The notes: generated from the letters alone by a model not told the origin. Shown: positions 1 through 54,885, counted from the stretch's first letter. The stretch is 63,102 nt of DNA from Candidatus Kapaibacterium sp. (GCA_044345485.1 JBIJAX010000006.1:1-63102), one strand, 5' to 3'. Made by a program: numbers and translations.

Positions 1-2206
1 CCGTAATAGCATAACGGAGTGCACCGGGCACAGACTTCCACGAAAAGTATTGTGCTTGCGCAAACGGTATAAGTGTATCGTTTGCAGGCGATGACAGCTC
101 GGGTGCTGCAGGGATGGTAACGATAAAGTGCTTTACCGACGGACGTCCCACAACTGTACCCCTCATTGAACTTACCGTCCAGGTATACGCCATGTTATAG
201 AGCAGTGGCTCTTGAAGCACGAGCGAATCAGCCGTTGTTACCTGGTTCACAACTGGCTGTCCAAGATCGCGGTCTGCAACTACTACCCGATAGCGTTCAG
301 CCCCTTCTGCTTTTGTCCAGCGGAATGTGGGCAGTACGGATATCGCCACAGTGTCTCTTTTGAGCACGGGGCTAATCGGCACTGGAATGCCCAGCATTGT
401 CGTAAATCGAAACGTCTCAGACCAGGGTCCCTTTGCATCTCCATCATAGACACGCCGAACGCGCCAGTAATATGTTGTTGCAAGCCGCAGACCCTGCATT
501 GTTGTGTCGGTTCGTTTGGTGGTGAACCTTGTAGACGTGCTAAAACTCGGCGCACCCGACACATCAACTTCATATCCATTGTTGATGGCGGCTGCCTTCC
601 AGGATACCATGGGGACAGAATCCACTTCCGTAGCAGCATGAACTGGTTTTAGCGGGGCTGGCTCGAGACATTCTCGATATGCCAACATGAACTCACCTGA
701 AACAAGCTTTCCTACTCGGAACCTCTGCTGTTGGGCATTATATGCGGCGTCGATAACGGCAAACGCGCCTTGTCCTTCAACTGGACGGTACAGCAGTTGC
801 ATACGTTCGGCTTGCTGGATAGCTCGGATATCTCCGGTGTTGAACCACAAAGCCCCCTTTAAGCTGAGGGAGTCTTCGATCTTTACTACCCATCGCAACG
901 GAAGCATGCCACAGAATGATTCAGCCAAGAACGAAATGTTGTGTGGCAGATAGTTGTGCCGCTCAACAACTACAGGTGTAGGAGTGGCAACTGTTGTAAT
1001 CTCCAGGGAAACATTCGTGGTGCTGTCATCACAGGACATAACTGTTGTGCCGGGAGTAGATATAACTGCGTGACACCCAGCCATTCCAAACGTTGACTTC
1101 ATTACCCGGTACGACGTGATCTCTGACTGACTTGTGTTTGTTATCGTAGCAACGACCTGTCCGTTTCGCTTGATCTCTTCAGCAATGATCATGCCTTTTC
1201 GTGATGAACCCTCTGTGGCTCCATAGTTCACGAGAATGTTGCCGTTCACGAGCTCCTCAACACTCCCCATTGCTGTTGAGTAGATATTGGACGGGGCGTT
1301 GTGTTCCCAAATCTTTGTTGCCGTATACGTTGAAAGATCAAGTTCGTACTCTACTGCACGCGACACTCTTGGGGCGGGTTTCAGATTGCCATTATCAAAC
1401 AGCATGATTGTACCTCGTGGTGTTTCAAATGCTGAGTGCTGGTGAGAAAAACCGGAAAAGGTGCCAAGGGCATCATTTGCTATTGTAAACGTGGTGTTCT
1501 TCGAGGCGCTGCCACCGAGCCTCCAGATAACATTCCCATTTGTGCTGTTAATCTTGATAACAGCGTCTAAGTGTCTACACGAAACAAGGAGGTGTCCGTC
1601 GCTGGAACGTTCAACTGAGTTAACATGAATGTAGTCGATCAATGCCGAGGCAAGATCAACATCATCTGTTGCATCAGTAACCGGGATATGATCAAACGAC
1701 TTCCATTCAAAGATCACCTGTCCATCAAATCCACGTTCTTGTATCACCGCACCAAGAACTATAGCATCAGCCCGGCCGGCATGATGAAACTGCGACATGT
1801 CGATCGTTCTGCGCTCGGTGCCGAGAATGATATACGACGTGTCTGACCAAATGCGACCTTCATGAAAATCAACCTGATAGTCGCCATCAAGAAACAACGA
1901 ATCAACTGTTTCGAGGTTGTGATCTTTGCGTACAAAACACCCTGTGCTTGATTGCCATCGCGACGTGTAATACGTAAGGTATGCAGCGCCGTAGGCTCTC
2001 AGGTTTGTAACCGTACCCGTTGGCACCCGAAACACACTCCTGCCAGTGTGATCTGTAAGGCCTATAGAGTCTGTGGAGTTTGGTGCCAGCAAGTAGTAGC
2101 CTGGTGCTACTGCATTACTCGTGGTGATGTCGAGGGTGTGAAAGTTCTGTTGGGCATGCAGTTGAGTGAATACGTTCACCAACAAGAATAGAATTGCGTT
2201 TTTCAT
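1..2206 (-). CDS. Secreted aryl-sulfate sulfotransferase (ASST)-like beta-propeller protein with FN3-like repeats; 3' end runs off the window
   Basis: Absent from the ORF track because there is no stop inside the window. Manual minus-strand translation from ATG 2206 gives MKNAILFLLVNVFTQLHAQQ (signal peptide), then DFHEG, FEWKSFDH, DYIHVNS, SCRHLD, WRLGG, GFSHQHS and LFDNGN, colinear with the 3875-7126 protein. Confidence 0.85.
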   Translation of the reverse strand, partial: MKNAILFLLVNVFTQLHAQQNFHTLDITTSNAVAPGYYLLAPNSTDSIGLTDHTGRSVFRVPTGTVTNLRAYGAAYLTYYTSRWQSSTGCFVRKDHNLETVDSLFLDGDYQVDFHEGRIWSDTSYIILGTERRTIDMSQFHHAGRADAIVLGAVIQERGFDGQVIFEWKSFDHIPVTDATDDVDLASALIDYIHVNSVERSSDGHLLVSCRHLDAVIKINSTNGNVIWRLGGSASKNTTFTIANDALGTFSGFSHQHSAFETPRGTIMLFDNGNLKPAPRVSRAVEYELDLSTYTATKIWEHNAPSNIYSTAMGSVEELVNGNILVNYGATEGSSRKGMIIAEEIKRNGQVVATITNTSQSEITSYRVMKSTFGMAGCHAVISTPGTTVMSCDDSTTNVSLEITTVATPTPVVVERHNYLPHNISFLAESFCGMLPLRWVVKIEDSLSLKGALWFNTGDIRAIQQAERMQLLYRPVEGQGAFAVIDAAYNAQQQRFRVGKLVSGEFMLAYRECLEPAPLKPVHAATEVDSVPMVSWKAAAINNGYEVDVSGAPSFSTSTRFTTKRTDTTMQGLRLATTYYWRVRRVYDGDAKGPWSETFRFTTMLGIPVPISPVLKRDTVAISVLPTFRWTKAEGAERYRVVVADRDLGQPVVNQVTTADSLVLQEPLLYNMAYTWTVSSMRGTVVGRPSVKHFIVTIPAAPELSSPANDTLIPFAQAQYFSWKSVPGALRYAIT

Positions 2207-12652: not shown

Positions 12653-12675
12653 CCCGTTCTTACGACGTAGACCCC

Positions 12676-12713: not shown

Positions 12714-12719
12714 GGTACC

Positions 12720-12727
12720 TATCTTTG
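12720..12727 (+). promoter_or_regulatory. -7 promoter element (TAnnTTTG) for ispD
   Basis: TATCTTTG directly after the upstream terminator and 3 nt before ATG 12731. Confidence 0.55.
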
Positions 12728-12730
12728 GGA

Positions 12731-13429: not shown

Positions 13430-13523
13430 TTGCCAAGGCGAAGGTTGTTTTGCGTCATGGTAAAACGGCATGTATATTCGCGCCGCTTGATACTTCAGAA
13501 ACCAATGTTGTAAGGATTCAGTC

Positions 13524-13763
13524 ATGTTTTGGACGCCCGAACTTGCTTCGTATCTGGAAGATGCGCCGTGGCCAGCAACAAAAGAAGAACTGATCGATTA
13601 CTGCAATCGAACAGGTGCACCGCTGCAGGTGATCGACAACCTCACAGAACTCGATGATTCCGAAGAGCTGACATACGAGGGTATCGAAGATCTTTGGCCT
13701 GAGTATGAAGAAGGCTCCGACGATTTGTTCTTCAGCGAAGACGAAGATCCGTACGATAATTAA
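13524..13763 (+). CDS. DUF2795 family small acidic protein
   Basis: MFWTPELASYLEDAPWPATKEELIDY...IEDLWPEY matches the conserved FCB-group DUF2795 pattern. Confidence 0.85.
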   Translation: MFWTPELASYLEDAPWPATKEELIDYCNRTGAPLQVIDNLTELDDSEELTYEGIEDLWPEYEEGSDDLFFSEDEDPYDN

Positions 13764-13784
13764 GAGCATTACATAGACATCCTA

Positions 13785-13818
13785 AACGCCCAGAGGGTTC
13801 GTCCTTCTGGGCGTTGTT
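13785..13818 (+). terminator. Terminator-like hairpin after the DUF2795 gene
   Basis: 13-bp stem aacgcccagaggg/ccttctgggcgtt (one G-U pair), 5-nt loop, weak T tail. Confidence 0.65.
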
Positions 13819-13845
13819 CGTTCTATACACCTTCCATACGGTATT

Positions 13846-16161
13846 TTGCGCCTTGTGATCATCACACGAACATGGTTGTGCTGTTTTATAGCCCTTGGAA
13901 TATGTATTTCGGGAGGGGGCTATGTCTTTGCCCAACAGGATGCTGGTGCGTATCAGGACAGCGTTATTCTGGCTGGAGAACGCTCTAGAGCGCTCCAACT
14001 TGAAGAGCTTCAGGGTGTAGAGATATTGGGGTGTCGCGAAATTCCCGACGTTGATCTGCTTGGCGTTATTTCCTCGCGTGCCAGTGACAACACCCTAGGC
14101 CGAAAGCTCGTAGAGTTCTATGAGTCTACGATGCGCCGTAACAGCGGTAAACCTGCCATTATCTATCGGCGCTTCGCGGAACTTCGGAGATCATATGAGA
14201 ATGACCGGCGTTTCTTTGAATCGAGTCTTGCCAAGGAAGACAGCAATGCAATACTTGTCTATCTGAATCAGCAGGGGTTCCATAACTCTTCGGTGGCATA
14301 TGGCTTTGGATACGACGGTGCAAACAAGAAGAAGACGTTACGATTTGTTGTTACCGAGGGCAAGCGAGCCCAGATAGATACCCTTGCAATACGGGGATTA
14401 GAGAGTATAGATTCATCGTTTCGTGAGTCGATTCTCTCGGGACTAGAGACGGGATCAAACAGCCCCTTCTCAGAGTCCTTGCTCGAGCGCGATCTCGGCA
14501 AGATCGTACGAGAGTTGCGGAACAGAGGATATTACCAGGCCAGCTATCAACCACCCACGGTGCAGATCAGCAATGATGGGCTGCATGATACCGTGCTGGT
14601 TCACATCAACGTTGGCAATAGAAAGCGAATTGGCTCTGTTGTGTTCGAAGAAAATGCGAACGGCTTCCGCTCTGTATCCGAAGGCACTCGATCACGTCAG
14701 TTAGAGTTTAGTGAAGGCGAGTGGTATAGCGAAGAAATGATAGAACAGTCGCGATCCAATTTGATGGGGCTGGGTACGTTCGAAGTTGTGTTGATCGATA
14801 CACTGGTTCAAAAGAACAGAGAGCAGGATTCTCTTCTTCATTTGAGGGTGTATACGCGCAACGCTAAACCCCACGATGTTGGGTTAAGTCTCCTGCTCTA
14901 CCAAACAGCCGTAGACAACTTTGTTAATCTTGGTCTCGGTGCAACTGTCCAGCATCGTAACGCATTTGGTGGCGCGCAGGTTGCATCAATCACAACACAG
15001 TACGTGCTTCAGGATGTAAGCCGAGTCACCCAGGGTCAACAGCTGGAGAGCGAGGCGCTGGGATCTCTTGTTCTTGTATGGCCAAACATTGGTCGGTTGT
15101 TTGACCAGCGTATAGCGCTGCAAACGTCTACGTTCTACTCGGCACGACAACTCATCACGCCGTTTCGGTTAGAGTCGTTTGGTCTTAATGCACGCGCTCC
15201 AATTTCCCTGTATTCACACACGTTTTTTAACGGCATTGATCTTAGTGTTGGGCTAGAGCGACAGATTCCTCTGAATTTTGATTTTGCGATTAACCGTGCT
15301 TTAACAGAAGCAAGGACAACGGAAGACTCTGTATTTGTTCGGAGTACGTTTAACCAGTTTCTCGTTCTAAGCGACTTCCTGAGCAAGTCTCGTGAGTTCT
15401 TTACGGGAATCAATGCTGGTCTCACGCTTCGGGGGGATCACCGGAATAGCCCCGTAAACCCAACGCGAGGTACACTGTCCTCTCTCTCCATAGAATGGGG
15501 CTGGGGCGCTGGCAAGTACATACGAGGCCAGGGGTTTGTTTCAACAGCCTTTGGGATGGGTCCGCGTGTAGTTGGTGCAACGAAGATCAGGGTCGGACAC
15601 ATTGCGCTGCTTGATTTTGTTCGTGGAGATTCAACAAAAAACAACACATACGTACCACTAGAACGCCAGTTCTTCGCTGGAGGTCCGGCTAGCATCCGCT
15701 CCTTTGCCTCTCGACGCCTTCACGATCCGGTATCGGGCAGAATATCCGGTGTGAATACCAGCGACGACTATGTTCTAGCAAACGTGATTGGTAGTGCTTC
15801 TCTTTTGGAACTTGGGTTTGAATTCCGTTATACGTTCGAAAGACCCAACGGTGTAGACGATCTCTGGGGATCATTGATCGAACGCAGTGGGATTACGTTC
15901 TTCACAGATATTGGGAACTCGTTCAACCGATTCACGTCTGAGTTGTATGGTACGTCGAAACTAGAAGATTTCTTGTACGGAAGCGCCGTGGCGCTTGGTG
16001 CGGGGTATCGTTTCGACACCCCTGTAGGACCGTTTCGAATTGACATGGCTACCAGTGTCTACGATCCAACGCGAACCGATGGACGTTGGATAGTTGGACG
16101 ACGTGGTGTGTTTAACAGCTCGAACTGGCAGCTAAGTATAGGACTAGGGCACGCTTTTTAA
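13846..16161 (+). CDS. Omp85 (BamA/TamA-like) outer-membrane protein with POTRA domains
   Basis: POTRA-like units (YLNQQGFHN, LRNRGYY), FFAGGPASIRSF loop motif, GYRFDTPVGPFRID, terminal IGLGHAF. Start TTG 13846 or GTG 13855. Confidence 0.88.
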   Translation: MRLVIITRTWLCCFIALGICISGGGYVFAQQDAGAYQDSVILAGERSRALQLEELQGVEILGCREIPDVDLLGVISSRASDNTLGRKLVEFYESTMRRNSGKPAIIYRRFAELRRSYENDRRFFESSLAKEDSNAILVYLNQQGFHNSSVAYGFGYDGANKKKTLRFVVTEGKRAQIDTLAIRGLESIDSSFRESILSGLETGSNSPFSESLLERDLGKIVRELRNRGYYQASYQPPTVQISNDGLHDTVLVHINVGNRKRIGSVVFEENANGFRSVSEGTRSRQLEFSEGEWYSEEMIEQSRSNLMGLGTFEVVLIDTLVQKNREQDSLLHLRVYTRNAKPHDVGLSLLLYQTAVDNFVNLGLGATVQHRNAFGGAQVASITTQYVLQDVSRVTQGQQLESEALGSLVLVWPNIGRLFDQRIALQTSTFYSARQLITPFRLESFGLNARAPISLYSHTFFNGIDLSVGLERQIPLNFDFAINRALTEARTTEDSVFVRSTFNQFLVLSDFLSKSREFFTGINAGLTLRGDHRNSPVNPTRGTLSSLSIEWGWGAGKYIRGQGFVSTAFGMGPRVVGATKIRVGHIALLDFVRGDSTKNNTYVPLERQFFAGGPASIRSFASRRLHDPVSGRISGVNTSDDYVLANVIGSASLLELGFEFRYTFERPNGVDDLWGSLIERSGITFFTDIGNSFNRFTSELYGTSKLEDFLYGSAVALGAGYRFDTPVGPFRIDMATSVYDPTRTDGRWIVGRRGVFNSSNWQLSIGLGHAF

Positions 16162-16177
16162 AAGCATGGGGGGTGTA

Positions 16178-17011
16178 TTACGTGATCTTCTTGATCACGC
16201 TATCGTGGAGATCAACATCCGATGCACTTGCTACGAGCGATAAGATTCCATCTGTAACTAAGTGCTGTTCCTGGTTGGTCTTCATACCGCGGCTTTGTAG
16301 AAACTCCACAATTGGCGCCGCCTCGCCCCCTGTAAAAATGACCGTCGGGTCTTTAAACTTCAAGTGCTTTGCGAACTGATCTACTGCTTGCTGAATACCA
16401 CCGGCAACTGAATACGTTACACCTGCCATGAGGCATTCCGTTGTATTAATTCCTACTACAGCAGTTGCCGGAGAGAACTTCATCTCTTGAATTGCCGCTG
16501 TTTGCTTGCTCAGACCAAATAGTTGTGTCGACAAGCCTGCGAAGATCACACCGCCTAGAAACTGTCGATCGTTGGACACAGCATTCACTGTTACTGCCGT
16601 TCCGCAGTCTACGGTTATCAACGGGGGCGTATACTTCGTCATTGCACCGATGGCACCTAACATTCGATCTATGCCGGCATTTTCAATGTGGCTCAACGAC
16701 AACAGCGATTCGTTGCGCATCAGCAGCGTGTGGGCGTTAACAACCAAATGGCTCGTGATTCGCTGAAGGACCTTGACAATTGCGGTGGTCTGTTTATGAT
16801 TAACGCTCGAAAGACCTATGATGTAACGCTTTTGCACGTGGTCGCGAAAGTGGTGCTGTACATTCTTCTTCCATTCTTTATCGTATGGAAAAGATAAGAA
16901 CACATCGTCGTGATGGATCTTTACGCGGCTGTTTCCAACGTCTATTGCTGCTATGCCGTAGCTAACGCCGTTGAGCTCAATCGATGTATCGTATAGAGTC
17001 GCCATTGTCAA
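16178..17011 (-). CDS. coaX: Type III pantothenate kinase
   Basis: Motifs IDVGNSRVK, GIDR, VDCGTAVT, FLGGVI, TGGEA. Overlaps the end of birA. Confidence 0.92.
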   Translation of the reverse strand: MTMATLYDTSIELNGVSYGIAAIDVGNSRVKIHHDDVFLSFPYDKEWKKNVQHHFRDHVQKRYIIGLSSVNHKQTTAIVKVLQRITSHLVVNAHTLLMRNESLLSLSHIENAGIDRMLGAIGAMTKYTPPLITVDCGTAVTVNAVSNDRQFLGGVIFAGLSTQLFGLSKQTAAIQEMKFSPATAVVGINTTECLMAGVTYSVAGGIQQAVDQFAKHLKFKDPTVIFTGGEAAPIVEFLQSRGMKTNQEQHLVTDGILSLVASASDVDLHDSVIKKIT

Positions 17012-17702
17012 TGATCCGTTCGAGAAATGTGGTGGTGTTTCGAATCAGTAATCGTCCGTCGTCTAACAGTTGCTCAACTACCCATACATCATCACTGTCC
17101 AGTACACGAATGTTGTTGCCTGTCAATCGAAGTTCTTTGGTCCACTCATCAATGGCATCTGAAGGTGACATTTGTGAGTATTGAAACATCCGATCGATGA
17201 TGTATGACCTGACAGTTTCTGTTGCAACGTGTACGTTTTGAAGCTGTAAAGACGTGCAGGGCTGTGATATAGTCTCTGGAAACACCGTCTGTTGGACGTT
17301 AATTCCAATGCCAATTATTGTGGCCACACATCTTGACCCTTCGAACTCGTGTTCTGTCAGTATACCTGCGATCTTACTCCAGCCTTTGTCTGTTTGTACC
17401 TGTAGATCATTGGGATATTTGATGCGAACTGTAATTTCTGGCGCCAATGTTCTGAGCACGGACGCAACAGCCAGGGTTGGATAGGCCATGGAAGCTACCA
17501 CATATGCGGTTTCAACTGTATTGTTTACCCTTTGCGCAAAGGATATATAGACATTGGCGCTGGGGTCTCCTTCCCACTTCTTACCGCTACGACCACGGCC
17601 TGCAGTTTGGTGGTCGGCAGATACAACTACAAACGGGGTGTCTTTTAACAACTCGCGTGCAACTGTATTGGTAGAATCCACAGTTGAAAGGTGGACGTGC
17701 AT
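16977..17702 (-). CDS. birA: Biotin--protein ligase (group I, no N-terminal HTH)
   Basis: Motifs VDSTN, QTAGRGRSGKKW, IKYPND, KIAGILTE, GIGINV. Confidence 0.93.
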   Translation of the reverse strand: MHVHLSTVDSTNTVARELLKDTPFVVVSADHQTAGRGRSGKKWEGDPSANVYISFAQRVNNTVETAYVVASMAYPTLAVASVLRTLAPEITVRIKYPNDLQVQTDKGWSKIAGILTEHEFEGSRCVATIIGIGINVQQTVFPETISQPCTSLQLQNVHVATETVRSYIIDRMFQYSQMSPSDAIDEWTKELRLTGNNIRVLDSDDVWVVEQLLDDGRLLIRNTTTFLERIIDNGDSIRYID

Positions 17703-17794
17703 TAATAAATTAATTTACGATGAAACATGGGGAACAAGGTCGACTACAACATTACCTGAATTTGTGGCACGGTTTTCTATTTTGTGCTACAACT

Positions 17795-19153
17795 ATGAAC
17801 CAAAGTACAGATACGATATGTGCATTGGCAACGCCACCGGGTGTGGCTGGCCTTGCTGTGATACGGATTAGCGGCCGAGAAGCCTTTAGTATCTGTGATG
17901 CTCTTTTCACTGGTAACGGGGTGGTATCCTCTGCACCTAGCCACACAATCCATTATGGATGGATATCTGAGGGGCCAACACGCATCGATTCGGTAACTGT
18001 ATCCATCTTTCGCTCCCCTACCTCGTATACTGGGGAAGATGTGGTCGAAATTGGATGCCACGGTGGTGTATTCGTAACAGAGCAACTTCTGTCCCTGTTG
18101 ATAAGCAAAGGGGCTCGCTTTGCCGATCCAGGAGAGTTCACGAAGCGGGCTTTTCTTAACAGGAAGCTGGATCTTACCCAAGTTGAAGCCGTTGCCGACA
18201 TCATCCATGCCGAAACCCGTGTTGGGGCTCAAACAGCAGCTCGACAGCTATCTGGGGGCTTTACAAGGAGATTGGGGGCTTTTCGTGAACAGGTGATGGA
18301 TGTTATTGGGCTGTTAGAACTCGAACTGGATTTCTCGGAAGAAGACGTAGAGTTCGTCGACCGTACTCACCTGCGCGTTCTTTTACAGGCGCTCTGCGAC
18401 GACGTAGATGCTTTAGCGGCAACTGCTCGGTCTTCTGAGGTATTGAGGACGGGTTTTCATGTTGCTGTCGTAGGCTTTCCGAATGCAGGTAAGAGCTCAC
18501 TCTTTAATGCGCTGCTTGACAGACCGAGAGCCATAGTAAGTGATGTTGCGGGCACTACCCGAGATTACCTCCAGGAGTCGCTCCTTCTTGAAGGATATAG
18601 CATCCATCTCGTAGATACGGCAGGAATCCGAGACGCCTCTGACAGTATCGAAATGCAAGGAATAAGCCTAACAGCCTCTGTAATGAGGGAAAGTGATCTT
18701 ATTCTGGTGCTGAACGATGTATCATTGGGTAGAAACCACTCTGAAAAGCTCGTACACGACATAACGAGCAACTACCCAGATTCATGCCTGCTGGTGGTTC
18801 AGAACAAGAGAGATCTTGTTCATGACAGTGGAGGATTGAGCGGTGACTGGGTAGAGTGCTCCGCCAGCAGTGGTTTTGGGGTAGATAACGTAAAGAAAGC
18901 ACTTGTGCGATACGCCAAAGCGCACGGAACCTCCCCGGGAGACATGCTTGTTAATGCCCGACAGGCGGTGTTATTGCACTCGATTTCTTCGAGCTTGCGG
19001 TCTTGTCTGGATGGTCTTGAACAGGGGTTATCTACCGACCTACTCTCCGTAGATCTTCGGGCATGCATCCGCCTCCTTGGAGAAATATCAGGAGAAACGT
19101 GGAATCCTGATGTCCTTGATACCGTCTTTTCTCGTTTCTGTATTGGAAAGTAG
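17795..19153 (+). CDS. mnmE: tRNA modification GTPase MnmE
   Basis: Motifs DTICALATPPG, SYTGEDVVEIGCHGG, GFPNAGKSSL, GTTRD, DTAG, terminal FSRFCIGK. Confidence 0.97.
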   Translation: MNQSTDTICALATPPGVAGLAVIRISGREAFSICDALFTGNGVVSSAPSHTIHYGWISEGPTRIDSVTVSIFRSPTSYTGEDVVEIGCHGGVFVTEQLLSLLISKGARFADPGEFTKRAFLNRKLDLTQVEAVADIIHAETRVGAQTAARQLSGGFTRRLGAFREQVMDVIGLLELELDFSEEDVEFVDRTHLRVLLQALCDDVDALAATARSSEVLRTGFHVAVVGFPNAGKSSLFNALLDRPRAIVSDVAGTTRDYLQESLLLEGYSIHLVDTAGIRDASDSIEMQGISLTASVMRESDLILVLNDVSLGRNHSEKLVHDITSNYPDSCLLVVQNKRDLVHDSGGLSGDWVECSASSGFGVDNVKKALVRYAKAHGTSPGDMLVNARQAVLLHSISSSLRSCLDGLEQGLSTDLLSVDLRACIRLLGEISGETWNPDVLDTVFSRFCIGK

Positions 19154-42490: not shown

Positions 42491-43117
42491 ATGACAATAG
42501 CACTGTATATGATCTTATTGACAGCAACAACACTGCACGCTGGGGTGTGGCCTGCGGGTGGAACATTCGAAACACCGCTCCGACATGGGTCGCCTGTGAG
42601 GATAACGTGGGATCAAAGTTTGCATGCCAAACATGTGCATGTAGAGTTATGGGACGGCGAGCAGCGTCGGAGTACCACTATAGCAACGTCAGTTAATGCT
42701 ACAGATGGACAGTTTCTGTGGACGATTCCCACCACACTGCGTCCGGGAAAAATGTACCGATTCGTTGTACGCGATGCAGATCTACCAAAGCGTGCAGAGT
42801 TTTCATCGGGCTTTCACTCCATAAACAGCGCCTCGAGTTTCGCAACCTCGATTGAAGACCAATCGTTAACAACAGATGCTCTGTTGGTTACCCCGTTTCC
42901 AGCTGTAGATCGCGCGCGCGTGGCATGGACCCGATACGACGCCTCGTCTATCGATGTTATCAACCTTCAAGGAGCGGTGGTGATGCATTTCGAACCAGCG
43001 CAATCCACGCGTTCATGTGTGGTTCATACGTCTGCATTGCAGAGCGGCACCTATACGGTAGTGCTCAAGCTCGTCAATGGAGGCGCCTATAGAAGCTGGC
43101 TCGTTGTATCACACTAG
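42491..43117 (+). CDS. Small secreted protein: one beta-sandwich + T9SS CTD
   Basis: Signal peptide; VRITW...FLWTIP...YRFVV; CTD PFPA...VINLQG...LQSGTYTV. Confidence 0.75.
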   Translation: MTIALYMILLTATTLHAGVWPAGGTFETPLRHGSPVRITWDQSLHAKHVHVELWDGEQRRSTTIATSVNATDGQFLWTIPTTLRPGKMYRFVVRDADLPKRAEFSSGFHSINSASSFATSIEDQSLTTDALLVTPFPAVDRARVAWTRYDASSIDVINLQGAVVMHFEPAQSTRSCVVHTSALQSGTYTVVLKLVNGGAYRSWLVVSH

Positions 43118-44552: not shown

Positions 44553-45953
44553 ATGATGCAATCACCAGCACCTTACACACCCTCCACAAAGGTTCGCATT
44601 GTTACTGCGGCGTCGTTGTTTGACGGACACGATGCGGCGATCAATGTGATGCGCCGAATCATTCAGGCCACCGGCTGCGAGGTTATCCACCTTGGTCACA
44701 ACAGATCCGTGCGCGAAGTGGTTGAGTGCGCAATTCAGGAAGATGCGCAGGCTATTGCCATGACGTCCTACCAGGGCGGACATGTAGAGTACCTGACCTA
44801 TATGCGCCAGCTGTTGGATGAACGGGGCGCCAAGCATATCTGCATTTTCGCCGGCGGCGGTGGAACGATACTTCCGTCGGAGATCGAAACACTCCATGCA
44901 AACGGCATTACAAGGGTATACTCCCCTGATGACGGTCGTGCGATGGGTCTTCAGGGTATGATCAATGATCTTGTCCAGAAGAGCGATTTCATTCCTCCGG
45001 TACCTGAGTCAGCATCCCTTTCAAGCCGCGTACAAGCAAAAGACCCAATGGCTATCGCTCAGGCAATATCCTGTGCGGAACGGGGCGAGCACACCCTTAT
45101 TGAATTTGCCAATGATGCCAAGCGGAGTCCGGTACTCGGAATAACAGGCACCGGTGGCGCAGGGAAATCTTCCCTTACAGATGAACTTGTCCGCAGATTT
45201 CTGTTGGATCATCCTGATAAGACCATTGCAGTTGTGAGCGTCGATCCGTCGAAACGCAAAACAGGCGGAGCGCTCCTGGGCGACCGTATTCGAATGAATG
45301 CGGTAAGCGATCCACGCGTCTACATGCGTTCGTTTGCTACGCGTGAATCAAACGTGGCGCTTAACCCTCACGTGCGGGATGCAATCAAGATTTTGTCGTA
45401 CGCACAGTATGATTTGATCGTAGTTGAAACCGCAGGTATTGGTCAAAGTGATTCGCAGATCACGGATCTTGCAGACGTGGCCATGTATGTGATGACGCCT
45501 GAATTCGGCGCAGCAACACAGCTTGAGAAGATCGACATGATCGATTATGCAGATATCATTGCTCTTAACAAGTTTGATAAACGGGGCGCACTGGATGCCC
45601 TGCGGGATGTTCGAAAGCAGTATCAACGAAGCCGACAACTTTTCTCGAGTCCACTCGATGACATGCCCGTCTACGGCACAATCGCATCACAGTTCAACGA
45701 CCCCGGCGCCAACACACTCTATCGTGCAGTGAATGATCTCCTTGTTCAGAAGTGTTCGCTTTCATGGACGTCTTCGTACATGGTAACCGACGAAATGAGT
45801 GAAAAGATCTACATCATCCCTCCCGATCGTACGCGATACCTTGCTGAGATCGTTGAAAGCAACCGTCGATACGACGCGTTTGTTGAGGAGCAATCGCAAC
45901 TAGCCCGTTCATTGTGGCAACTACGCGGTGTAATCGAGCAGCTTCAGAAATGA
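44553..45953 (+). CDS. icmF: Split IcmF, N-terminal part: cobalamin-binding domain + MeaB-like GTPase + first part of linker
   Basis: Motifs [66 protein letters not shown]; stops after EQLQK. Confidence 0.9.
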
Positions 45954-47296
45954 GAATAGCCCTCACCATATGGACTCTCACCGCGGTTGTGTTGCTCACG
46001 GCCTGCAGTGGATCGGATCCGGTTACACCGGATACGCAAAAGGCAGCCATACGGTTCTATAACGGCAACACTGCAATGGCAAGAGTGGAGATCAACAACA
46101 GCGAAGTCTTCGCTAGTCAGTTGTCTGGTGGTGTCAGTGGACGCACCATTCTTGAACCAACAACAGACAGCATCGAGATACGGGCATTCGATGTTGCAAC
46201 CAACGCTATCGTTGCTAGAAGAAGAACAACACTTAACCCTCTGAACTACAGTCTTGTGTTGTTTCCTTCAACGGCTGTCTTCAATTGCGTTCGGCGTCCG
46301 GAAGAATGCGTACTGCGCGAAGATGCCTCTGCGCCCCCTTCTGGACGTGCGCGTATTCGGGTGATCAACGCAACAAAAGACGGCACAGAGCTCTCCCTAA
46401 AACTCGACGGAATGGAGGTTCTTCCATCTACGCAGCTTGGGATATGTACGATATCAAACGTCGTAGACATTGAAGCAGGCGAGCATGATATTACACTTCT
46501 CCGCACAACAAACGAGCAGTATGAGGCAGCCTACGGCAGCGTTACACTTAAGGCTGGTGTTTCGTATACGGTGCTCCTGAGCGGATCGCTTTCTTTCGAG
46601 GATACATTTCCATTTCGAGCTCGAATGTATTCAGACGATGACGCAACATCAGAGATGTTCGACCTACGTATTCCTCCTGATGTTGGCAAGTATCAGATCG
46701 TAAATGCGGTGGCCGGATTGAAGGCATTCGAGGCTAGGGTAGATGGCGCGCCAAAACCGCAAACGGCTAACATCCAGTTCTCGGAATCATCCGGATATGT
46801 AGATCTCGAGATAGGCACCCATACAACGGGTGTGTTTGTGAACACAACACCGCTGATTCAAGAAACGCTTACCACAACAACGCTTCGGTCACGGAAGACC
46901 CTCTTCGTTACCGGTTCAATGGTCCCGCCGAACATAGCAGGTATTGAAGTTGTTGATCTTGTTCAGCCCCTTTCCCAAAACTCAGCTACAATTCGTGTGA
47001 TGCACCTGTCGCCGGATGCGCCGGCACTGGATTTCTACCGAATTGTAAACGGCATTGAAGTGATTATTGACGGGTGTGCGCTGATGGAGTTTCGTCAAGC
47101 ATCGTCAACAGCCAACGGCAAGATGCAGTTTACTGAACTGCCGGCCGGACAAGTCACAATTCTTGCAAAGAAGGCCAATACACAAACTATTGTTCTTGCA
47201 CCAACACAAGTAACTCTTGCGCCTGGCGAAGTGTCTACCCTATGGTTAGGGGGCTTGAGTAGCGCGGCAAAACTGTACCACGTGAAACACAACTAG
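45950..47296 (+). CDS. DUF4397-type repeat lipoprotein
   Basis: Lipobox LTAC; four related units ([32 protein letters not shown]); ATGA overlap with the upstream stop. Confidence 0.8.
47274..47289. promoter_or_regulatory. parS-like site inside the 3' end of the DUF4397 gene
   Basis: TGTACCACGTGAAACA, one mismatch to TGTTCCACGTGAAACA. Confidence 0.55.
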
Positions 47297-47304
47297 ATAT
47301 CACC

Positions 47305-49296
47305 ATGACATCAGAGCAGACCCAGACAGACGTAGCGGTTGCCGCTTTAGAGCAGCGAGCCGCTGAACTCGAAGCAAAACTTCACCATGAAGTACGCACA
47401 TTACTTGACTCTTGGGAAGTGAAGAAAGCGTCATATCAAGGCGAACACTACACGTATGTTGTTCGCGGCAAAGAAATCAAGGTCAAAAACCATACTGAAT
47501 CGTTAGCACATACCCGAGTGCCGAAGATCTCCCTACCGAAGTTTTCAGACTGGGGTGAAATCGTGCGCTGGTGTATGCAAGAAAATGTCCCTGGTGAATT
47601 TCCCTACACTGCTGGTGTGTACCCGTTCAAGCGAACGAACGAAGATCCAACGCGCATGTTTGCTGGCGAGGGTGGACCAGAGCGTACGAATAAACGATTC
47701 CACTACCTGTCGCTTGGAATGCCCGCAGCACGTCTGTCAACTGCATTCGACAGCGTTACACTTTATGGCGAGGATCCGGACTACCGTCCTGATATCTACG
47801 GCAAGATCGGCAACTCGGGCGTGAGCATTGCTTCGCTCGATGATGCAAAGAAGCTCTATTCTGGATTTGATCTTTGCGCACCGACAACATCTGTCTCGAT
47901 GACGATCAATGGTCCGGCACCAATGCTACTTGCATTCTTCATGAATGCAGCGATCGATCAAGAGTGCGAAAAGGTTATTCGAGAGCGTGGACTCGAAACA
48001 GAGGTATCAGCCAAGATCGATCAGATCTATTCGGCAAAGGGGCTACTGCGTCCAGTGTACCGTCATGGCGATGGTTCTACCGACCTACCCGAGGGAAACA
48101 CCGGTCTTGGCCTTATGCTCTTAGGCGTTACAGGAGACCAAGTACTCGATGCAGAAACCTATGCAGCATGTAAGCAGCGCGCATTGCAAAACGTACGCGG
48201 AACGGTACAGGCAGACATCCTCAAAGAAGATCAAGCGCAAAACACGTGCATCTTTTCGACAGAGTTTGCTCTGCGAATGATGGGTGATGTACAGAAGTAC
48301 TTTATCGATGAAAAGGTTCGAAACTTCTACTCGGTTTCTATCTCTGGTTACCACATCGCAGAAGCCGGTGCAAACCCGATCACACAGCTTGCGTTTACCC
48401 TTGCCAATGGATTTACCTACGTTGAGTATTACCTCTCACGAGGAATGCATATCGATGACTTTGCACCGAATCTCTCGTTCTTCTTCTCGAATGGGGTAGA
48501 CCCAGAATATTCTGTCATTGGCCGAGTTGCTCGAAAGATCTGGGCCAAGGCCATGAAGCACAAGTACAGTGGCAACGAGCGCTCACAGATGCTGAAGTAC
48601 CACATTCAAACGTCAGGACGGTCCCTGCACGCGCAGGAGATCGACTTTAACGACATCCGCACGTCGCTGCAGGCCCTGTATGCCATCTACGACAACTGCA
48701 ACTCGTTGCATACAAACGCCTACGACGAGGCGATCACAACACCAACAGAAGAGAGTGTTCGCAGGGCGGTAGCAATTCAGCTCATCATCAACCGAGAGTT
48801 GGGTCTGGCAAAGAACGAGAATCCAATCCAGGGGTCGTTCATCATTGAAGAACTCACAGACCTGGTTGAAGAGGCCGTCTACATGGAGTTCCGTCGCATC
48901 ACTGATCGTGGTGGTGTGTTGGGAGCAATGGAGAACATGTATCAACGGAACAAAATCCAGGAAGAGTCTCTGTACTACGAAACACTCAAGCACACCGGCG
49001 AGTATCCAATCGTTGGCGTGAACACCTTCCTGAGTTCCAAGGGAAGTCCGACCGTTATCCCAGCAGAGGTTATTAGGTCTACCACGGACGAAAAAGAACA
49101 ACAGATCAACAACGTTCGTATGGTGCAGAACCGCAGCGGAGATGCCACAGCGCAAGCCCTACATACCCTGCGCCAGACCGCGATTCAAAACGGCAACATC
49201 TTTGAAGCGCTAATGGAGGCGGCTAAGGTGTGTTCGCTTGGACAGATGACCAATGCACTCTACGATGTTGGTGGACAGTACCGTAGGAACATGTAG
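47305..49296 (+). CDS. icmF: Split IcmF, C-terminal part: rest of linker + acyl-CoA mutase TIM barrel
   Basis: Motifs [67 protein letters not shown], terminal GGQYRRNM. Confidence 0.92.
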
Positions 49297-51764: not shown

Positions 51765-51791
51765 TGATCAACGAATAGAGCGAGGTGCGTG

Positions 51792-52721
51792 ATGCCGATC
51801 ACACCTACAAAGACGATATGGAAGAACGGGACCTTTATCCCGTTTGAGAAAGCAACAATTCACGTGTTGTCTCACGTGGTGCATTACGGCTCCTCGTGGT
51901 TTGAGGGCATCCGCTGTTATGATACCGAGAAGGGTACGGCGATATTCCGTCTGCCAGAGCACATGCGCAGACTACATCATTCGCTGAAGGTGTACCGTTC
52001 GCAGCTGCCGTTCTCTGTAGATGAACTCTCTGAAGCAGCTGTTGATCTGGTAAAACGCAACAAACTCGGGCGTTGCTACATACGTCCATTTGCCCTGCGC
52101 GGATTCGGCGACATGGGAGTCTATGGCCTGCGGTGTCCGCTAGATGTTTACATCGCTGCATGGGAATGGGGCGCATACCTCGGCGATGACGCCGCCTCCA
52201 ACGGCGTGGATGTTTGTGTGTCTTCGTGGGACCGCATCACGCCCAATGCAATGCCTTCCCTTGCCAAGGCTGGCGGTAATTACATGAACTCCCAGCTTGT
52301 AAAGATGGAAGCTGTTGAAAACGGCTACGCAGAAGGAATTTGTCTAGATTCATACGGTAACGTTGCAGAAGGCTCGGGCGAGAACGTCTTTCTTGTTATC
52401 GACAACGAACTTGTAACGCCCCCTGCCGCAACATCGTTGCTTCCGGGAATTACCCGCGACACGGTTATCACCCTGGCCACAGAGCTTGGAATTACCGTGC
52501 GCGAACAAAACATACCCCGGGCAATGTTGTATGTGGCCGATGAAATGTTCCTCACTGGCACAGCCAGCGAGATAGCGCCCGTGACATCAGTAGACCGCAT
52601 CGCCGTAGGACGTGGCAAGGTTGGACCAATGACGCGGGCCCTACAGCAGGCATTTCACAACATCACCGTGTCGGGCGAAGACCCGTACGGATGGCTCAGC
52701 TTTGTTAAGAAGAGCCGCTAA
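51792..52721 (+). CDS. ilvE: Branched-chain amino acid aminotransferase
   Basis: Motifs HVVHYG..FEGIR, YIRP, AKAGGNY, EGSGENVF, LPGITR, ADEMFLTGTASE. GAGGTG upstream. Confidence 0.95.
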   Translation: MPITPTKTIWKNGTFIPFEKATIHVLSHVVHYGSSWFEGIRCYDTEKGTAIFRLPEHMRRLHHSLKVYRSQLPFSVDELSEAAVDLVKRNKLGRCYIRPFALRGFGDMGVYGLRCPLDVYIAAWEWGAYLGDDAASNGVDVCVSSWDRITPNAMPSLAKAGGNYMNSQLVKMEAVENGYAEGICLDSYGNVAEGSGENVFLVIDNELVTPPAATSLLPGITRDTVITLATELGITVREQNIPRAMLYVADEMFLTGTASEIAPVTSVDRIAVGRGKVGPMTRALQQAFHNITVSGEDPYGWLSFVKKSR

Positions 52722-52758
52722 CAACGAAATACTTAATCGACGAAATCAGGAGAACACC

Positions 52759-54885
52759 ATGGCTAAGGCCAAGGCAAAAACACCGCCAGCAAAGAATACA
52801 TCAGCATCGAAATCCCCTGTCAAGCCCTCGGCAGCACCCGCGGTTGAGTTGTTTGACCTTAAGGGAATCAAAGCGGACGTGCTGTTGGAATGGTACAAGA
52901 CCCAGCACTTGGGACGTAGGCTAGATGAAAAGGCTGCCAACTATCTCAAGATGGCAAAGGGGTGGTCCTACCATGCACCATTTGCTGGACATGACGGCAT
53001 TCAGTTGGCACTAGGCAAGGTGTTCCGTCCGGGTAAAGATTTCCTGTTCCCATACTACCGCGACATGCTTACATCCCTTGCAGCGGGCGTAACAGTAGAA
53101 GAGATCATTGCTAATGGTCTTTCGAAAGATGCCGACGTAGCCGGTGGTGGACGTCACATGAGCAACCACTTTGCCAAGATTTCGATTAACCTTCAGAACT
53201 CATCATCCTGCACTGGAAACCATTCGCAGCAGGCAGTAGGTACAGCCCGCTCGATCAAGAAGTTCAAGGGCGACGAAGTTGTATTCTGCTCAACTGGAGA
53301 TAGCACAACATCAGAAGGATACTACTACGAAGCCGTTAACGGAGCAGACCGCGAAAAGCTTCCTGTTGTCTTTGTGATTCAAAACAACAAGTACGGAATC
53401 TCAGTACCACTGCATGAGCAGACGGCAAATCCTATTGTCGCAGAAAACTTCAGCGGCTTTACGAACCTGAAGATCTTCTACTGTGACGGACGCAACCCGG
53501 TTGATTCCTACAACACCATGGTTGCTGCCCGTGATTATGCAGCAAGCGGCAAGGGGCCAGCAATGGTCCACGCAGACTGTGACCGTATTGGTTCGCATTC
53601 AAACTCTGACAATCACGAACTCTATCGCACCAAGGAAGACATCGAGGCAATGAAGGGTCGCGACCCACTCCCGCGCATGCGTGCCTCGCTGATCGCGGCG
53701 GGGATCGCTACAGATGCCGAGCTCGCAGCCATCGAAGAAGCGAACAAGACGGCCATTTTTGCAGCAGCAGATGCAGTAGAGCCCCTTCCGGACCCAGAAC
53801 CAGCTTCATACACACAGTTTCTGCTTCCTGATGCAGTTGTAGGGTACAATGACGACTCGGAAGTCCGCTGTACGCCAGCACCCGATGCGCCTGTTGTTAC
53901 CTTCCGTGAGGGCATCGTTAATGCCATGATGGAAGAATTCCGCCGTAATCCGAGCACCTTTTTGTTCGGACAGGACGTTGCCTCGCACAAGAAGCAGGGG
54001 ATTTTCAATGTCTGTAAGGGTATGCTTGATGAGTTCGGCAACGACCGCGTGTTTAACGCACCGATCGCCGAGGACTTTATTGTTGGTACAGCGAACGGCA
54101 TGACGCGGTACCGCGACGACATCCGAGTGGTTGTAGAGGGTGCCGAGTTTGCAGACTACTTCTGGCCGGCTATGGAGCAGCTGATCGAGTGCACGCACGA
54201 TTACTGGCGCACACGCGGGCAGTTTTCCCCTGCGATGGTTATCCGCCTAGCATCGGGAGGCTATATCCAGGGTGGATTGTACCATTCGCAAAACCTTGAA
54301 GGAACATTTACAACACTCCCAGGTCTTCGAGTTGTGTGTCCGGCCTTTGCCGACGATGCCGTTGGACTCATGCGCAATGCAATTCGTTCGCGTGGTACCA
54401 CGATGTACCTCGAGCCAAAATTCCTCTATAACTATCGTCCAACATCTGCTCAGATGCCATCAGAGGACTTCATCATTCCGTTTGGGAAGGCAAAGATCCG
54501 CCGAGCCGGATCCAGCCTCACCATCGTAACCTACGGCACGCCGGTGCACTGGAGTCTCCAGGCTGCCGAGCAGCTCTCGGCCGAGGGAATAGATGTAGAG
54601 GTTATCGACTTGCGTTCGCTAGCCCCTTGGGACAAGGAAATGGTCTTCGAGAGTGTAAAGCGTACCGGTCGATGTGTCGTAGCGCATGAGGACAAGAAAA
54701 CAGGCGGATTTGGTGGGGAAATTGCCTCATCTATCGGCGAAGAGCTATTCCGATACCTGGATGCTCCAGTAGCGCGTGTTGGTTCGAAAGACACACCGGT
54801 TGGCTTCGCAAAGAGCTTGGAGCAGGCCATCCTTCTCAATGTAAACGATATCGTTTCAGCTGTTCGGGCTACAATGTCGTTCTAG
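52759..54885 (+). CDS. 2-oxoacid dehydrogenase E1, fused alpha/beta (probably branched-chain)
   Basis: PYYRD, GD...EG...NN ThDP-binding motif, HSNSD, FGQDV, FNAPIAE, GGLYHSQ, EVIDLRSL. AGGAG upstream. Confidence 0.9.
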   Translation: MAKAKAKTPPAKNTSASKSPVKPSAAPAVELFDLKGIKADVLLEWYKTQHLGRRLDEKAANYLKMAKGWSYHAPFAGHDGIQLALGKVFRPGKDFLFPYYRDMLTSLAAGVTVEEIIANGLSKDADVAGGGRHMSNHFAKISINLQNSSSCTGNHSQQAVGTARSIKKFKGDEVVFCSTGDSTTSEGYYYEAVNGADREKLPVVFVIQNNKYGISVPLHEQTANPIVAENFSGFTNLKIFYCDGRNPVDSYNTMVAARDYAASGKGPAMVHADCDRIGSHSNSDNHELYRTKEDIEAMKGRDPLPRMRASLIAAGIATDAELAAIEEANKTAIFAAADAVEPLPDPEPASYTQFLLPDAVVGYNDDSEVRCTPAPDAPVVTFREGIVNAMMEEFRRNPSTFLFGQDVASHKKQGIFNVCKGMLDEFGNDRVFNAPIAEDFIVGTANGMTRYRDDIRVVVEGAEFADYFWPAMEQLIECTHDYWRTRGQFSPAMVIRLASGGYIQGGLYHSQNLEGTFTTLPGLRVVCPAFADDAVGLMRNAIRSRGTTMYLEPKFLYNYRPTSAQMPSEDFIIPFGKAKIRRAGSSLTIVTYGTPVHWSLQAAEQLSAEGIDVEVIDLRSLAPWDKEMVFESVKRTGRCVVAHEDKKTGGFGGEIASSIGEELFRYLDAPVARVGSKDTPVGFAKSLEQAILLNVNDIVSAVRATMSF

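What the first reader, a model, noticed from the sequence alone, without database searches (positions are those of the whole stretch)
44553..49296. IcmF split inside its linker into two intact genes, with an unrelated lipoprotein gene in between
Seen: ORF1 (466 aa) holds the cobalamin domain, GTPase and start of the linker. ORF3 (663 aa) holds the rest of the linker and the mutase barrel. Together they make 1129 aa, with no frameshifts and the key motifs intact. The middle gene overlaps the ORF1 stop (ATGA) and ends 8 nt before ORF3. Established: IcmF is normally a single chain of roughly 1100 aa. The Phe of PTRMFAGEG and the Gln residues of ILKEDQAQN mark isobutyryl-CoA rather than methylmalonyl-CoA specificity. 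Ordinary unfused systems separate at domain boundaries (IcmA/IcmB/MeaB-like), not mid-linker. Inference: secondary fission at a surface loop, giving a two-subunit IcmF reassembled by the flanking helices ([22 protein letters not shown] and [17 protein letters not shown]). This loop may be a tolerated landing site for incoming genes.
Basis: partly seen in the sequence, partly recalled or inferred. Interest (0 to 1): 0.78.

Follow-up and report, generated by a model that had tools for sequence, protein, structure and literature searches.

The report
Naturally split two-gene IcmF mutase
A vitamin-B12 enzyme that is normally one long chain is here encoded as two intact genes with a lipoprotein gene wedged between them, and the same break point has been used repeatedly in related bacteria.

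Summary
ORF1 (44553-45953, 466 aa) holds the B12 domain, the MeaB-like GTPase and the first linker helix of IcmF. ORF3 (47305-49296, 663 aa) holds the second linker helix and the barrel. ORF2 (45950-47296) is a DUF4397 lipoprotein gene in another frame.

It is not an assembly error, since independent contigs bridge both junctions. It is not decay either: dN/dS is 0.014-0.050 for the halves.

The split is not private to this genome. All 104 listed N-half matches in seven families of the order (named Candidatus Kapabacteria on one relative) lie in frames of 287-550 aa. In the window's family the halves are adjacent, usually with the DUF4397 gene between them. In the other six families they are 5.6 kb to over 1 Mb apart or on separate contigs.

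The break lies in a variable loop between two linker helices, at about residue 486 of the solved Cupriavidus enzyme. A distant Bacteroidota genus split at the same loop independently, with different cargo: an ATPase pair or a YhcG nuclease.

A structure model docks ORF1's tail helix onto ORF3, possibly from memory of the solved enzyme. Activity is untested.

Verdict: a real, conserved two-subunit IcmF, and a new variant of a known enzyme.

The parts
44553..45953 (+). icmF N-half (466 aa): cobalamin-binding domain, MeaB-like GTPase and first part of the linker. Gene callers in the protein collection start it one codon later, giving 465 aa.
44595..44906 (+). B12-binding domain (ORF1 residues 15-118). 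The DGHDAA motif, with His26, is at 44622-44639.
   Evidence: PF02310; D24-A29 invariant in 23 of 23
45090..45623 (+). MeaB-like G-protein domain (ORF1 residues 180-357). P-loop GTGGAGKSS at 45147-45173; NKFD at residues 339-342.
   Evidence: MeaB 8dpb_B: Z 25.1, rmsd 2.4, 239 aligned
45822..45947 (+). Tail helix of the N-half (residues 424-465), the first helix of the IcmF linker. It is predicted to dock on ORF3.
   Evidence: helix 424-465; contacts at residues 422-465; junction alignment
45950..47296 (+). ORF2 (448 aa): a lipoprotein with tandem DUF4397 beta-sandwich domains, in a different frame. Its ATG overlaps the ORF1 stop.
47297..47304 (+). 8-nt spacer between the ORF2 stop and the ORF3 start
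47305..49296 (+). icmF C-half (663 aa): second linker helix, rest of the linker and the substrate-binding TIM barrel. F119 is at 47659-47661 and Q312 at 48238-48240.
47326..47406 (+). N-terminal helix of the C-half (residues about 8-34), predicted to pack against ORF1's tail helix
49309..50247 (+). PLP-dependent enzyme gene directly downstream. A similar ORF follows the C-half in the related loci where I looked. It is context, not part of the split.

Best explanation
This is a natural two-subunit form of IcmF, the fused isobutyryl-CoA mutase.

One subunit (ORF1) carries the cobalamin-binding domain, the G-protein chaperone and the first linker helix. The other (ORF3) carries the second linker helix, the rest of the linker and the substrate barrel with the isobutyryl-CoA-type Phe and Gln.

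Inferred: the two chains reassemble without a covalent link. ORF1's long tail helix packs on ORF3's N-terminal helix and the barrel surface, which brings the B12 domain over the barrel as in the single-chain enzyme. The enzyme would therefore work like classical two-subunit ICM (large and small subunit), except that the small subunit carries its own chaperone.

Shown: the break sits in a length-variable loop between two helices, and the state is inherited across seven families of the order. In the window's family the halves stay adjacent and co-oriented with a fast-evolving DUF4397 lipoprotein gene between them. That gene is most likely a co-transcribed passenger unrelated to catalysis (inferred). 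In one sub-clade it was lost again and the halves did not rejoin.

The neighbouring genes (class IV aminotransferase, fused 2-oxoacid dehydrogenase E1) fit a role in branched-chain acyl-CoA metabolism (inferred).
For: Anatomy and motifs.

Break position: ORF1 model residues 8..466 align to 4xc6_A residues 21..486 (Z 49.0, rmsd 5.8, 457 aligned). The core 9..420 aligns to 4xc8_A 22..441 (Z 50.0, rmsd 2.0, 409 aligned). The junction alignment of 53 sequences puts every break in one variable loop.

Selection (the three pairs with every dS under 1):
- G000-G022: N-half 0.034, ORF2 0.142, C-half 0.018.
- G013-G004: 0.050, 0.154, 0.014.
- G019-G010 (no insert): N-half 0.047, C-half 0.046.

Not an artefact: a 1611-nt contig of run X7 spans 45773-47383 with 0 differences. 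Contigs of X6 and X8 bridge each junction. The same three-ORF layout was seen in the 8 same-genus loci with an insert that were checked first.

Lineage-wide: all 104 listed N-half matches in families f1, f3, f6, f7, f8, f10 and f11 lie in open frames of 287-550 aa. In f1, both halves are on one contig, colinear and N-half first in 48 of the 50 genomes that have the N-half.

Passenger gene: a DUF4397 gene lies between the halves in 43 of 51 f1 genomes, counting the window's own, by sequence search. Two more carry a shorter lipoprotein gene there, of which G060's matched DUF4397.

Co-inheritance: separate trees of the N and C parts both place split f3g3 next to fused f4+f5 at 99*.

Docking: complex prediction with ORF3 plus ORF1 residues 395-466 scored 0.89, against 0.00 for the best of 3 controls. 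The mark was reached by 116 of 157 solved complexes and 2 of 215 mismatched pairs. The three runs agree in at least 76% of contacts and the partner's pLDDT is at least 66.

The split persists without the insert: G006, G019, G010 and G021 have TAA, 11-12 nt, then ATG.

Context genes.
Against: No biochemical or expression evidence. No RNA run holds the stretch.

The complex score may come from memory of the solved single-chain IcmF (4XC6), and it used my own alignments.

N-half was found but no C-half in G033 (100% complete by markers), G238, G217 and G223. Only an MCM-like hit at 35-37% identity turned up there. So the N-half might sometimes act alone, or those assemblies have gaps.

In six families the halves are 5.6 kb to over 1 Mb apart or on separate contigs, so co-expression is not guaranteed.

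The genome also encodes a separate MCM-like mutase (720-aa frame) and a MeaB-like GTPase (328-aa frame). Cross-partnering cannot be excluded.
Confidence: 0.8

Rival explanations
1. The loop is a true insertion hotspot. Incoming gene cassettes cut the fused gene, and the DUF4397 gene (or a forerunner) caused the fission in the ancestor. The halves later drifted apart in other families as more genes piled into the gap and rearrangements followed. This rivals the order of events only, not the two-subunit enzyme.
For: In genus g217, 3 of 17 species are split at the same loop and all three carry cargo. 12 of 17 are fused at 73-90% protein identity to the split form. The cargo differs: an AAA_15/AAA_21 ATPase plus a DUF4276-like protein in G491 and G644, and a YhcG/DUF1016 nuclease in G645. 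No g217 species shows adjacent halves without cargo.

In the order there is a graded series of gaps. One gene sits between the halves in most of f1, two in G054 and seven ORFs in a 15-kb gap in G034. G029 has divergent halves 5.6 kb apart, and complete genomes G026, G083 and G243 have them 0.6-1.5 Mb apart.
Against: No terminal repeats and no recombinase gene were seen at either insert.

No DUF4397 gene lies next to either half in the unlinked families. None of 10 neighbours scanned was DUF4397, and the only homologue outside f1, in G030, is on another contig.

Four f1 species have adjacent halves and no insert, so an insert is not needed to keep the split.

ORF2 has the same G+C content as its flanks.
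Confidence: 0.4
2. The halves no longer form one enzyme. The N-half has become a free-standing B12-binding G-protein, serving as chaperone or B12 carrier for another mutase. The C-half is inactive or pairs with another B12 subunit.
For: The halves are unlinked in six families. Orphan N-halves occur in G033, G238, G217 and G223. A separate MCM-like mutase and a MeaB-like GTPase exist in the window's genome.
Against: The C-half keeps every IcmF-specific invariant, including F119 and Q312, and has the lowest dN/dS (0.014-0.046). It has no B12 domain of its own.

At E <= 1e-50 the window's genome gave only the two IcmF halves and one MCM-like frame of 720 aa. That frame also matches the model's B12 positions 5-117 at the looser cut-off.

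The N and C trees agree on the key grouping. The docking model passes its controls.
Confidence: 0.1
3. A full-length IcmF is still made, by stop-codon read-through, frameshifting or protein splicing across the gap.
For: In G006 and G021 the halves are in the same frame, separated only by TAA and four codons.
Against: In the window and in all insert-bearing loci looked at, a 1.3-1.5-kb gene in another frame, with its own signal peptide and lipobox, lies between the halves. Pfam finds only DUF4397 in ORF2 and no intein domain. G019 and G010 have an 11-nt, out-of-frame spacer. In six families the halves lie 5.6 kb to over 1 Mb apart or on separate contigs.
Confidence: 0.02
4. The locus is a pseudogene or an assembly artefact.
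For: Interrupted IcmF genes do occur elsewhere. G333, L124 and L132 carry frameshifts at other positions, and G638 has internal stops.
Against: dN/dS is 0.014-0.050. There are over 100 species with the same break. Contigs from other runs bridge both junctions. All motifs are intact.
Confidence: 0.01

Closest known systems
IcmF, fused isobutyryl-CoA mutase (Cupriavidus metallidurans, PDB 4XC6; NCBIfam NF045497)
   Same: Same domain order and content: B12 domain, MeaB-like GTPase, linker, barrel. About 53-55% identity over the N-half in the structural alignment. E-values are 3.8e-152 and 1.3e-262 for the two halves. The PTRMFAGEG motif is identical and the ILKEDQxQN motif differs at one position, both with the same Phe and Gln.
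   Different: It is encoded as two genes, broken at about native residue 486, with a third gene between them. ORF3 has a segment of about 54 residues (232-285) where the Cupriavidus chain has about 5 (731-735).
Classical two-subunit isobutyryl-CoA mutase (IcmA large, IcmB small) with a free MeaB-like chaperone. The names are recalled. The solved analogue seen here is 2-hydroxyisobutyryl-CoA mutase HcmA/HcmB (4R3U).
   Same: A separate barrel subunit and a separate B12 subunit must assemble. ORF3 residue 94 aligns to HcmA chain residue 75, so ORF3 starts only some 20-40 residues before a free large subunit would. ORF1 residues 11-147 superpose on the HcmB small subunit (Z 18.4, rmsd 2.3, 131 aligned).
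   Different: The small subunit is fused to the G-protein and carries a 42-residue tail helix. By sequence the halves are IcmF, not IcmA/IcmB.
MeaB / MMAA G-protein chaperones of methylmalonyl-CoA mutase
   Same: ORF1 residues 151-400 superpose on MeaB residues 6-262 (8dpb_B: Z 25.1, rmsd 2.4, 239 aligned). MeaB (329-aa sequence) has about 65 further residues, and ORF1 has 66.
   Different: ORF1 has a B12 domain at its N-terminus. Its tail was not shown to match MeaB's C-terminal arm.
Gene cassettes lodged between conserved genes (defence-island-style hotspots)
   Same: In genus g217 the same slot holds either an AriA/AbiLi/GajA-like ATPase with a small partner or a YhcG PDDEXK nuclease in closely related species.
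   Different: The two flanks are halves of one enzyme gene. No recombinase or terminal repeats were found. The window's own cargo gave no PADLOC hit.

Membership tests
IcmF (NF045497, fused isobutyryl-CoA mutase/GTPase) | One polypeptide of about 1100 aa carrying the B12 domain, GTPase, linker and barrel | tested here: not met
   There are two ORFs of 466 and 663 aa, with a 448-aa ORF in another frame between them.
IcmF (NF045497, fused isobutyryl-CoA mutase/GTPase) | Match to the equivalog model over its whole length, above 1500 bits | tested here: inconclusive
   ORF1 covers positions 2-465 (658.3 bits) and ORF3 reaches position 1076 (1101.4 bits). Each is under the cut-off and the sum is 1759.7. 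Together the matches cover positions 2-1076.
IcmF (NF045497, fused isobutyryl-CoA mutase/GTPase) | Cobalamin-binding His motif and GTPase P-loop / NKxD | tested here: met
   D24-A29 including H26, G199-S207 and N339-D342 are invariant in 23 of 23 sequences.
IcmF (NF045497, fused isobutyryl-CoA mutase/GTPase) | Phe and Gln in the substrate pocket (isobutyryl-CoA type). That these two residues set the specificity is recalled, not taken from a call. | tested here: met
   F119 and Q312 are invariant in 23 of 23 sequences. They align to the same Phe and Gln of the solved IcmF.
IcmF (NF045497, fused isobutyryl-CoA mutase/GTPase) | AdoCbl-dependent isobutyryl-CoA/n-butyryl-CoA isomerase and GTPase activity | not testable with these tools
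   An enzyme assay is needed.
Two-subunit ICM (IcmA/IcmB) with a free chaperone | A small subunit made of the B12 domain alone, with the chaperone as a separate protein | tested here: not met
   ORF1 joins the B12 domain and the GTPase in one chain.
DUF4397 (PF14344), for ORF2 | Match above Pfam's gathering score | tested here: met
   112.6 bits against a cut-off of 30.6, in 3 stretches. The model is all-beta.
Bacterial lipoprotein, for ORF2 | Signal peptide ending in a lipobox Cys | tested here: inconclusive
   LLTAC lies at residues 15-19 after a hydrophobic stretch, and C19 is invariant in 19 of 19. No signal-peptide predictor was run.
Intein or other self-splicing insert | An in-frame insert with a Hint or endonuclease domain | tested here: not met
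   ORF2 is in another frame with its own start and stop. Pfam finds only DUF4397.

The most novel reading that the evidence does not exclude
The inter-helix loop of the IcmF linker is a recurrent, tolerated break point. Foreign genes can lodge inside a working metabolic gene there without killing it. Once split, the two conserved halves act as fixed flanks of a slot whose cargo turns over (surface lipoprotein, metal ATPase, defence-like ATPase pair, PDDEXK nuclease) and can grow until the halves come apart. Fission or re-fusion at this one loop has happened at least three times in Bacteroidota.
Probability: 0.35. Interest if true: 0.75.

Novelty: new variant of a known kind. Interest (0 to 1): 0.58.

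Why it matters
IcmF is the textbook exception among B12 mutases because its G-protein chaperone is covalently part of the enzyme. Current models of cofactor loading rest on that fusion (PMC10481361, passages read).

A natural form keeps the chaperone fused to the B12 domain but frees both from the barrel, and it has been conserved in over 100 species. That shows the link between chaperone and barrel is dispensable. It also offers ready-made subunits for testing how the B12 domain and G-domain move during loading and repair.

For genome evolution, it is a clean case of gene fission at one loop, repeated in independent lineages. It comes with a graded series from adjacent halves to unlinked halves, and with different passenger genes in the gap.

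For annotation, the N-halves that carry a name in the top 120 of 7802 database hits are labelled 'methylmalonyl-CoA mutase', 'isobutyryl-CoA mutase', 'cobalamin-dependent protein' or 'hypothetical protein'. Each half falls below the IcmF model's cut-off.

Tried and rejected
(1) One search reported 'open frames' of about 1600 aa. I first read these as an in-frame insertion. One search showed three separate ORFs, so the figure summed neighbouring pieces in one frame.

(2) The search of protein representatives with ORF1 returned mostly fragments. Three candidates for other split N-halves (P0164, P0141, P0132) run past the loop and then diverge, so they are not clean loop splits.

(3) I considered that ORF2 might be a B12-capturing surface lipoprotein. 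The model is four beta-sandwich units. Its best PDB matches are PepT1/2 extracellular domains at E about 1e-7, and nothing links it to B12. PADLOC gave no hit.

(4) I considered that ORF1's tail equals MeaB's C-terminal dimerisation arm. hhalign covers only MeaB residues 4-229, and VIA superposes only up to MeaB residues 262-267. Lengths fit, but homology is not shown.

(5) Terminal repeats or mobile-element marks at the inserts: none were found, only a 12-nt hairpin after the G491 N-half stop.

(6) RNA evidence: no RNA holder was listed.

(7) DUF4397 next to the unlinked halves: none among the 10 neighbours scanned.

(8) Literature: searches found no description of a split IcmF. The founding IcmF papers (PMC2804213, PMC4345561) and the pivalyl-CoA mutase paper are not held, so an earlier mention there cannot be excluded.

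(10) The genome-contig scan returned only Bacteroidia relatives and no names for the window's own order. The only taxon name comes from one relative's label.
Full report
**What is there.** The three ORFs are exactly as described.
- ORF1, 44553-45953, 466 aa.
- ORF2, from ATG 45950 to TAG 47296, 448 aa, in another frame. Its ATG overlaps the ORF1 stop as ATGA.
- ORF3, 47305-49296, 663 aa, 8 nt after the ORF2 stop.

Pfam finds a B12-binding domain and a MeaB-type GTPase in ORF1, three DUF4397 stretches in ORF2, and the mutase barrel in ORF3.

The NCBIfam IcmF equivalog covers ORF1 at model positions 2-465 (658.3 bits) and ORF3 up to position 1076 (1101.4 bits). Each half alone falls below the 1500-bit cut-off.

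Against solved Cupriavidus IcmF, ORF1 residues 9-465 align to construct residues 42-505. ORF3 residues 13-663 align to 512-1113. Only about six residues of the reference are unaccounted for at the break.

The B12 His motif, P-loop and NKFD in ORF1, and F119 and Q312 in ORF3, are present and invariant in 23 split homologues.

**Where the break lies.** A passage of PMC10481361 sets the Cbl and G domains at residues 22-442 and the linker plus barrel at 443-1093.

An AlphaFold model of ORF1 (pLDDT 81.9) ends in a single long helix, residues 424-465. Model residues 8..466 align to 4xc6_A residues 21..486 (Z 49.0, rmsd 5.8, 457 aligned). The core 9..420 aligns to 4xc8_A residues 22..441 (Z 50.0, rmsd 2.0, 409 aligned). 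The cut is therefore about 45 residues into the linker.

A junction alignment of 39 split and 14 fused relatives puts every break in one length-variable loop between two helices. That loop is about 5 residues long in some fused forms and 20-30 residues in others.

MeaB superposes on ORF1 residues 151-400 up to its own residue 262 (8dpb_B: Z 25.1, rmsd 2.4, 239 aligned), and then has about 65 more residues (329-aa sequence). ORF1 has 66 more. ORF3 residue 94 aligns to residue 75 of the free large subunit HcmA. By length, then, the cut is near the seam between the MeaB-like and large-subunit-like parts. Homology of the tail to MeaB's arm was not shown.

**Real and functional.**
- Contigs from runs other than the likely source bridge both junctions with no differences. 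X7 covers 45773-47383, and X6 and X8 each bridge one junction per contig.
- For pairs with every dS under 1, dN/dS is 0.034, 0.142 and 0.018 (N-half, ORF2, C-half) for G000-G022. It is 0.050, 0.154 and 0.014 for G013-G004. It is 0.047 and 0.046 for the insert-free pair G019-G010. The other pairs had dS above 1.3 or saturated for at least one gene and are not used.
- Complex prediction with ORF3 and ORF1 residues 395-466 scored 0.89, against 0.00 for the best of three controls. The mark was reached by 116 of 157 solved complexes and 2 of 215 mismatched pairs. The runs agree in at least 76% of contacts and the partner's pLDDT is at least 66.
- In that model, ORF1 residues 422-465 touch ORF3 residues 8-34, 82-92, 367-378, 412-420 and 526-540. 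A like structure is solved, so this pass may show likeness only.

**How widespread.** The window is contig C86 of a 2.2-Mb genome, 94% complete. One 78%-identical relative is labelled Candidatus Kapabacteria.

In 254 genomes of the order, all 104 listed N-half matches in families f1, f3, f6, f7, f8, f10 and f11 sit in open frames of 287-550 aa. The shortest of these are cut by contig ends.

Families f4, f5 and f9 and five genera of f2 have fused genes of 1125-1178 aa at 59-66% identity over the N-half. Most other f2 genomes have a more distant fused form at 45-48% identity.

In f1, 50 of 51 genomes (counting the window's own) have the N-half, and G002 has none. In 48 of these 50, both halves are on one contig, co-oriented, with the N-half first. 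An ORF2 homologue lies between the halves in 43 of the 51, counting G000. G060 and G062 carry a shorter lipoprotein gene there, of which G060's matched DUF4397, and G054 also has a P-type ATPase gene there.

G006, G019, G010 and G021 have no insert, only TAA, 11-12 nt, then ATG. The three of them that are in the tree form one clade nested among insert-bearing species. The insert was therefore lost there, and the genes did not rejoin.

ORF2 evolves fast. It shows 33-40% identity in most of the genus, where the IcmF halves keep 79-88%.

Outside f1 the halves are apart:
- 0.6-1.5 Mb in the complete genomes G026, G083 and G243.
- 15 kb, with seven ORFs between them, in G034.
- 5.6 kb and divergent in G029.
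- On separate contigs elsewhere.

**How often it happened.**
- On a tree of the joined halves (53 rows), split versus fused needs three changes. The split f3g3 pair is sister to fused f4+f5 at 99*.
- The AU test of a single split clade gives p = 0.039. This is marginal, and the group was named after seeing the tree.
- Separate N-part and C-part trees (31 rows each) repeat the f3g3 grouping at 99*.
- An RpoB tree of 24 genomes also needs three changes, and puts split f8+f11 next to fused f9.
- All of these are quick LG+G4 trees. They show more than one event, but they cannot tell fission from re-fusion or transfer.

Outside the order, a sample of 401 Bacteroidota genomes gave about 130 listed rows. 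About 128 of them lie in frames of 1088 aa or more. One (G333) is frameshifted inside the barrel. One (G491) is split at the same loop.

Of 80 named Bacteroidia loci, 69 are fused, 9 run off the contig in frame, and 2 are interrupted elsewhere.

In G491's genus, 3 of 17 species are split, 12 are fused, 1 is cut by a contig end and 1 is broken. G491 and G644 carry an AAA_15/AAA_21 ATPase (AriA/AbiLi/GajA-like in PADLOC) and a 174-aa protein with a weak DUF4276 match. G645 carries a YhcG/DUF1016 nuclease in the same slot.

DNA homology to a fused relative stops at nt 1430 and resumes at nt 1513 of the fused gene, while the summed protein length is kept. No terminal repeats or recombinase gene were seen.

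**Reading.** The window holds an inherited two-subunit IcmF. How it assembles is modelled, not measured.

Three points are added. The trait is lineage-wide. The cut lies near a natural seam. The order of fission and insertion is open for this lineage, while the second genus makes insertion-driven fission plausible.

The downstream genes (PLP enzyme, GatB, class IV aminotransferase, fused 2-oxoacid dehydrogenase E1) fit branched-chain acyl-CoA metabolism.

No paper in the held library describes a split IcmF. The founding papers could not be read.

Noticed in passing
L096 (G491:C1:547000-557000) 4232-9227; L100; L101: In an unrelated Bacteroidota genus, IcmF is split at the same loop. Either an AAA_15/AAA_21 ATPase plus a small DUF4276-like gene, or a YhcG/DUF1016 nuclease gene, sits between the halves.
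   Followed up: yes
L063 (G054:C3) 2391-4589: A heavy-metal P-type ATPase gene (HMA, E1-E2 ATPase) lies between the IcmF N-half and the DUF4397 gene. The gap can therefore take further genes.
   Followed up: partly
L034 (G034:C10) 742-19139: The IcmF halves are co-oriented but 15 kb apart. Seven ORFs lie between them, including a 1482-aa protein with a weak secretion-tail match and small lipoproteins.
   Followed up: partly
window 47998-48159 (ORF3 residues 232-285): A segment of about 54 residues inside the barrel region aligns to only about 5 residues in Cupriavidus IcmF. It holds invariant residues (P250, Y252, L261, P262, G269) in the split homologues and is also present in a fused Bacteroidia relative (G433).
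   Followed up: no
G033, G238, G217, G223: The IcmF N-half is present, but no C-half was found. Only an MCM-like match at 35-37% identity turned up. G033 is rated 100% complete. This is either an assembly gap or a real orphan N-half.
   Followed up: partly
G002 (same genus): A 99%-complete genome of the same genus gave no IcmF half in three searches. Its only hit was to the barrel part of the IcmF model (positions 706-1073).
   Followed up: no
L097 (G333), L124, L132, G638: These IcmF genes are interrupted at other positions by frameshifts or internal stops. They look like decay or sequencing errors and differ from the clean loop split.
   Followed up: partly
L096 5643-5669: A perfect 12-nt inverted repeat lies just after the N-half stop in G491. 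Related copies (92-96% over 28-37 nt) lie inside the YhcG gene region of G645.
   Followed up: no
window 51789-54885: A class IV aminotransferase gene overlaps the start of a 727-aa ORF that combines the E1_dh, transketolase pyrimidine-binding and C-terminal domains. This is a fused E1 alpha/beta of a 2-oxoacid dehydrogenase.
   Followed up: no
window 42491-43117: A 208-aa ORF has a Kre9/KNH-like Ig domain. Its C-terminal stretch looks to me like a type IX secretion sorting tail, which was not tested.
   Followed up: no
G003:C113:1100-2179 and G003:C63:1100-2239: Two contigs of one genome each carry a copy of the IcmF C-half end, starting at the same contig coordinate. This is probably strain-variant duplicate contigs in the bin.
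   Followed up: no
IcmF of family f3 genus g3 groups with fused f4+f5, while its RpoB groups with the rest of f3. This hints at transfer of icmF between families of the order.
   Followed up: partly
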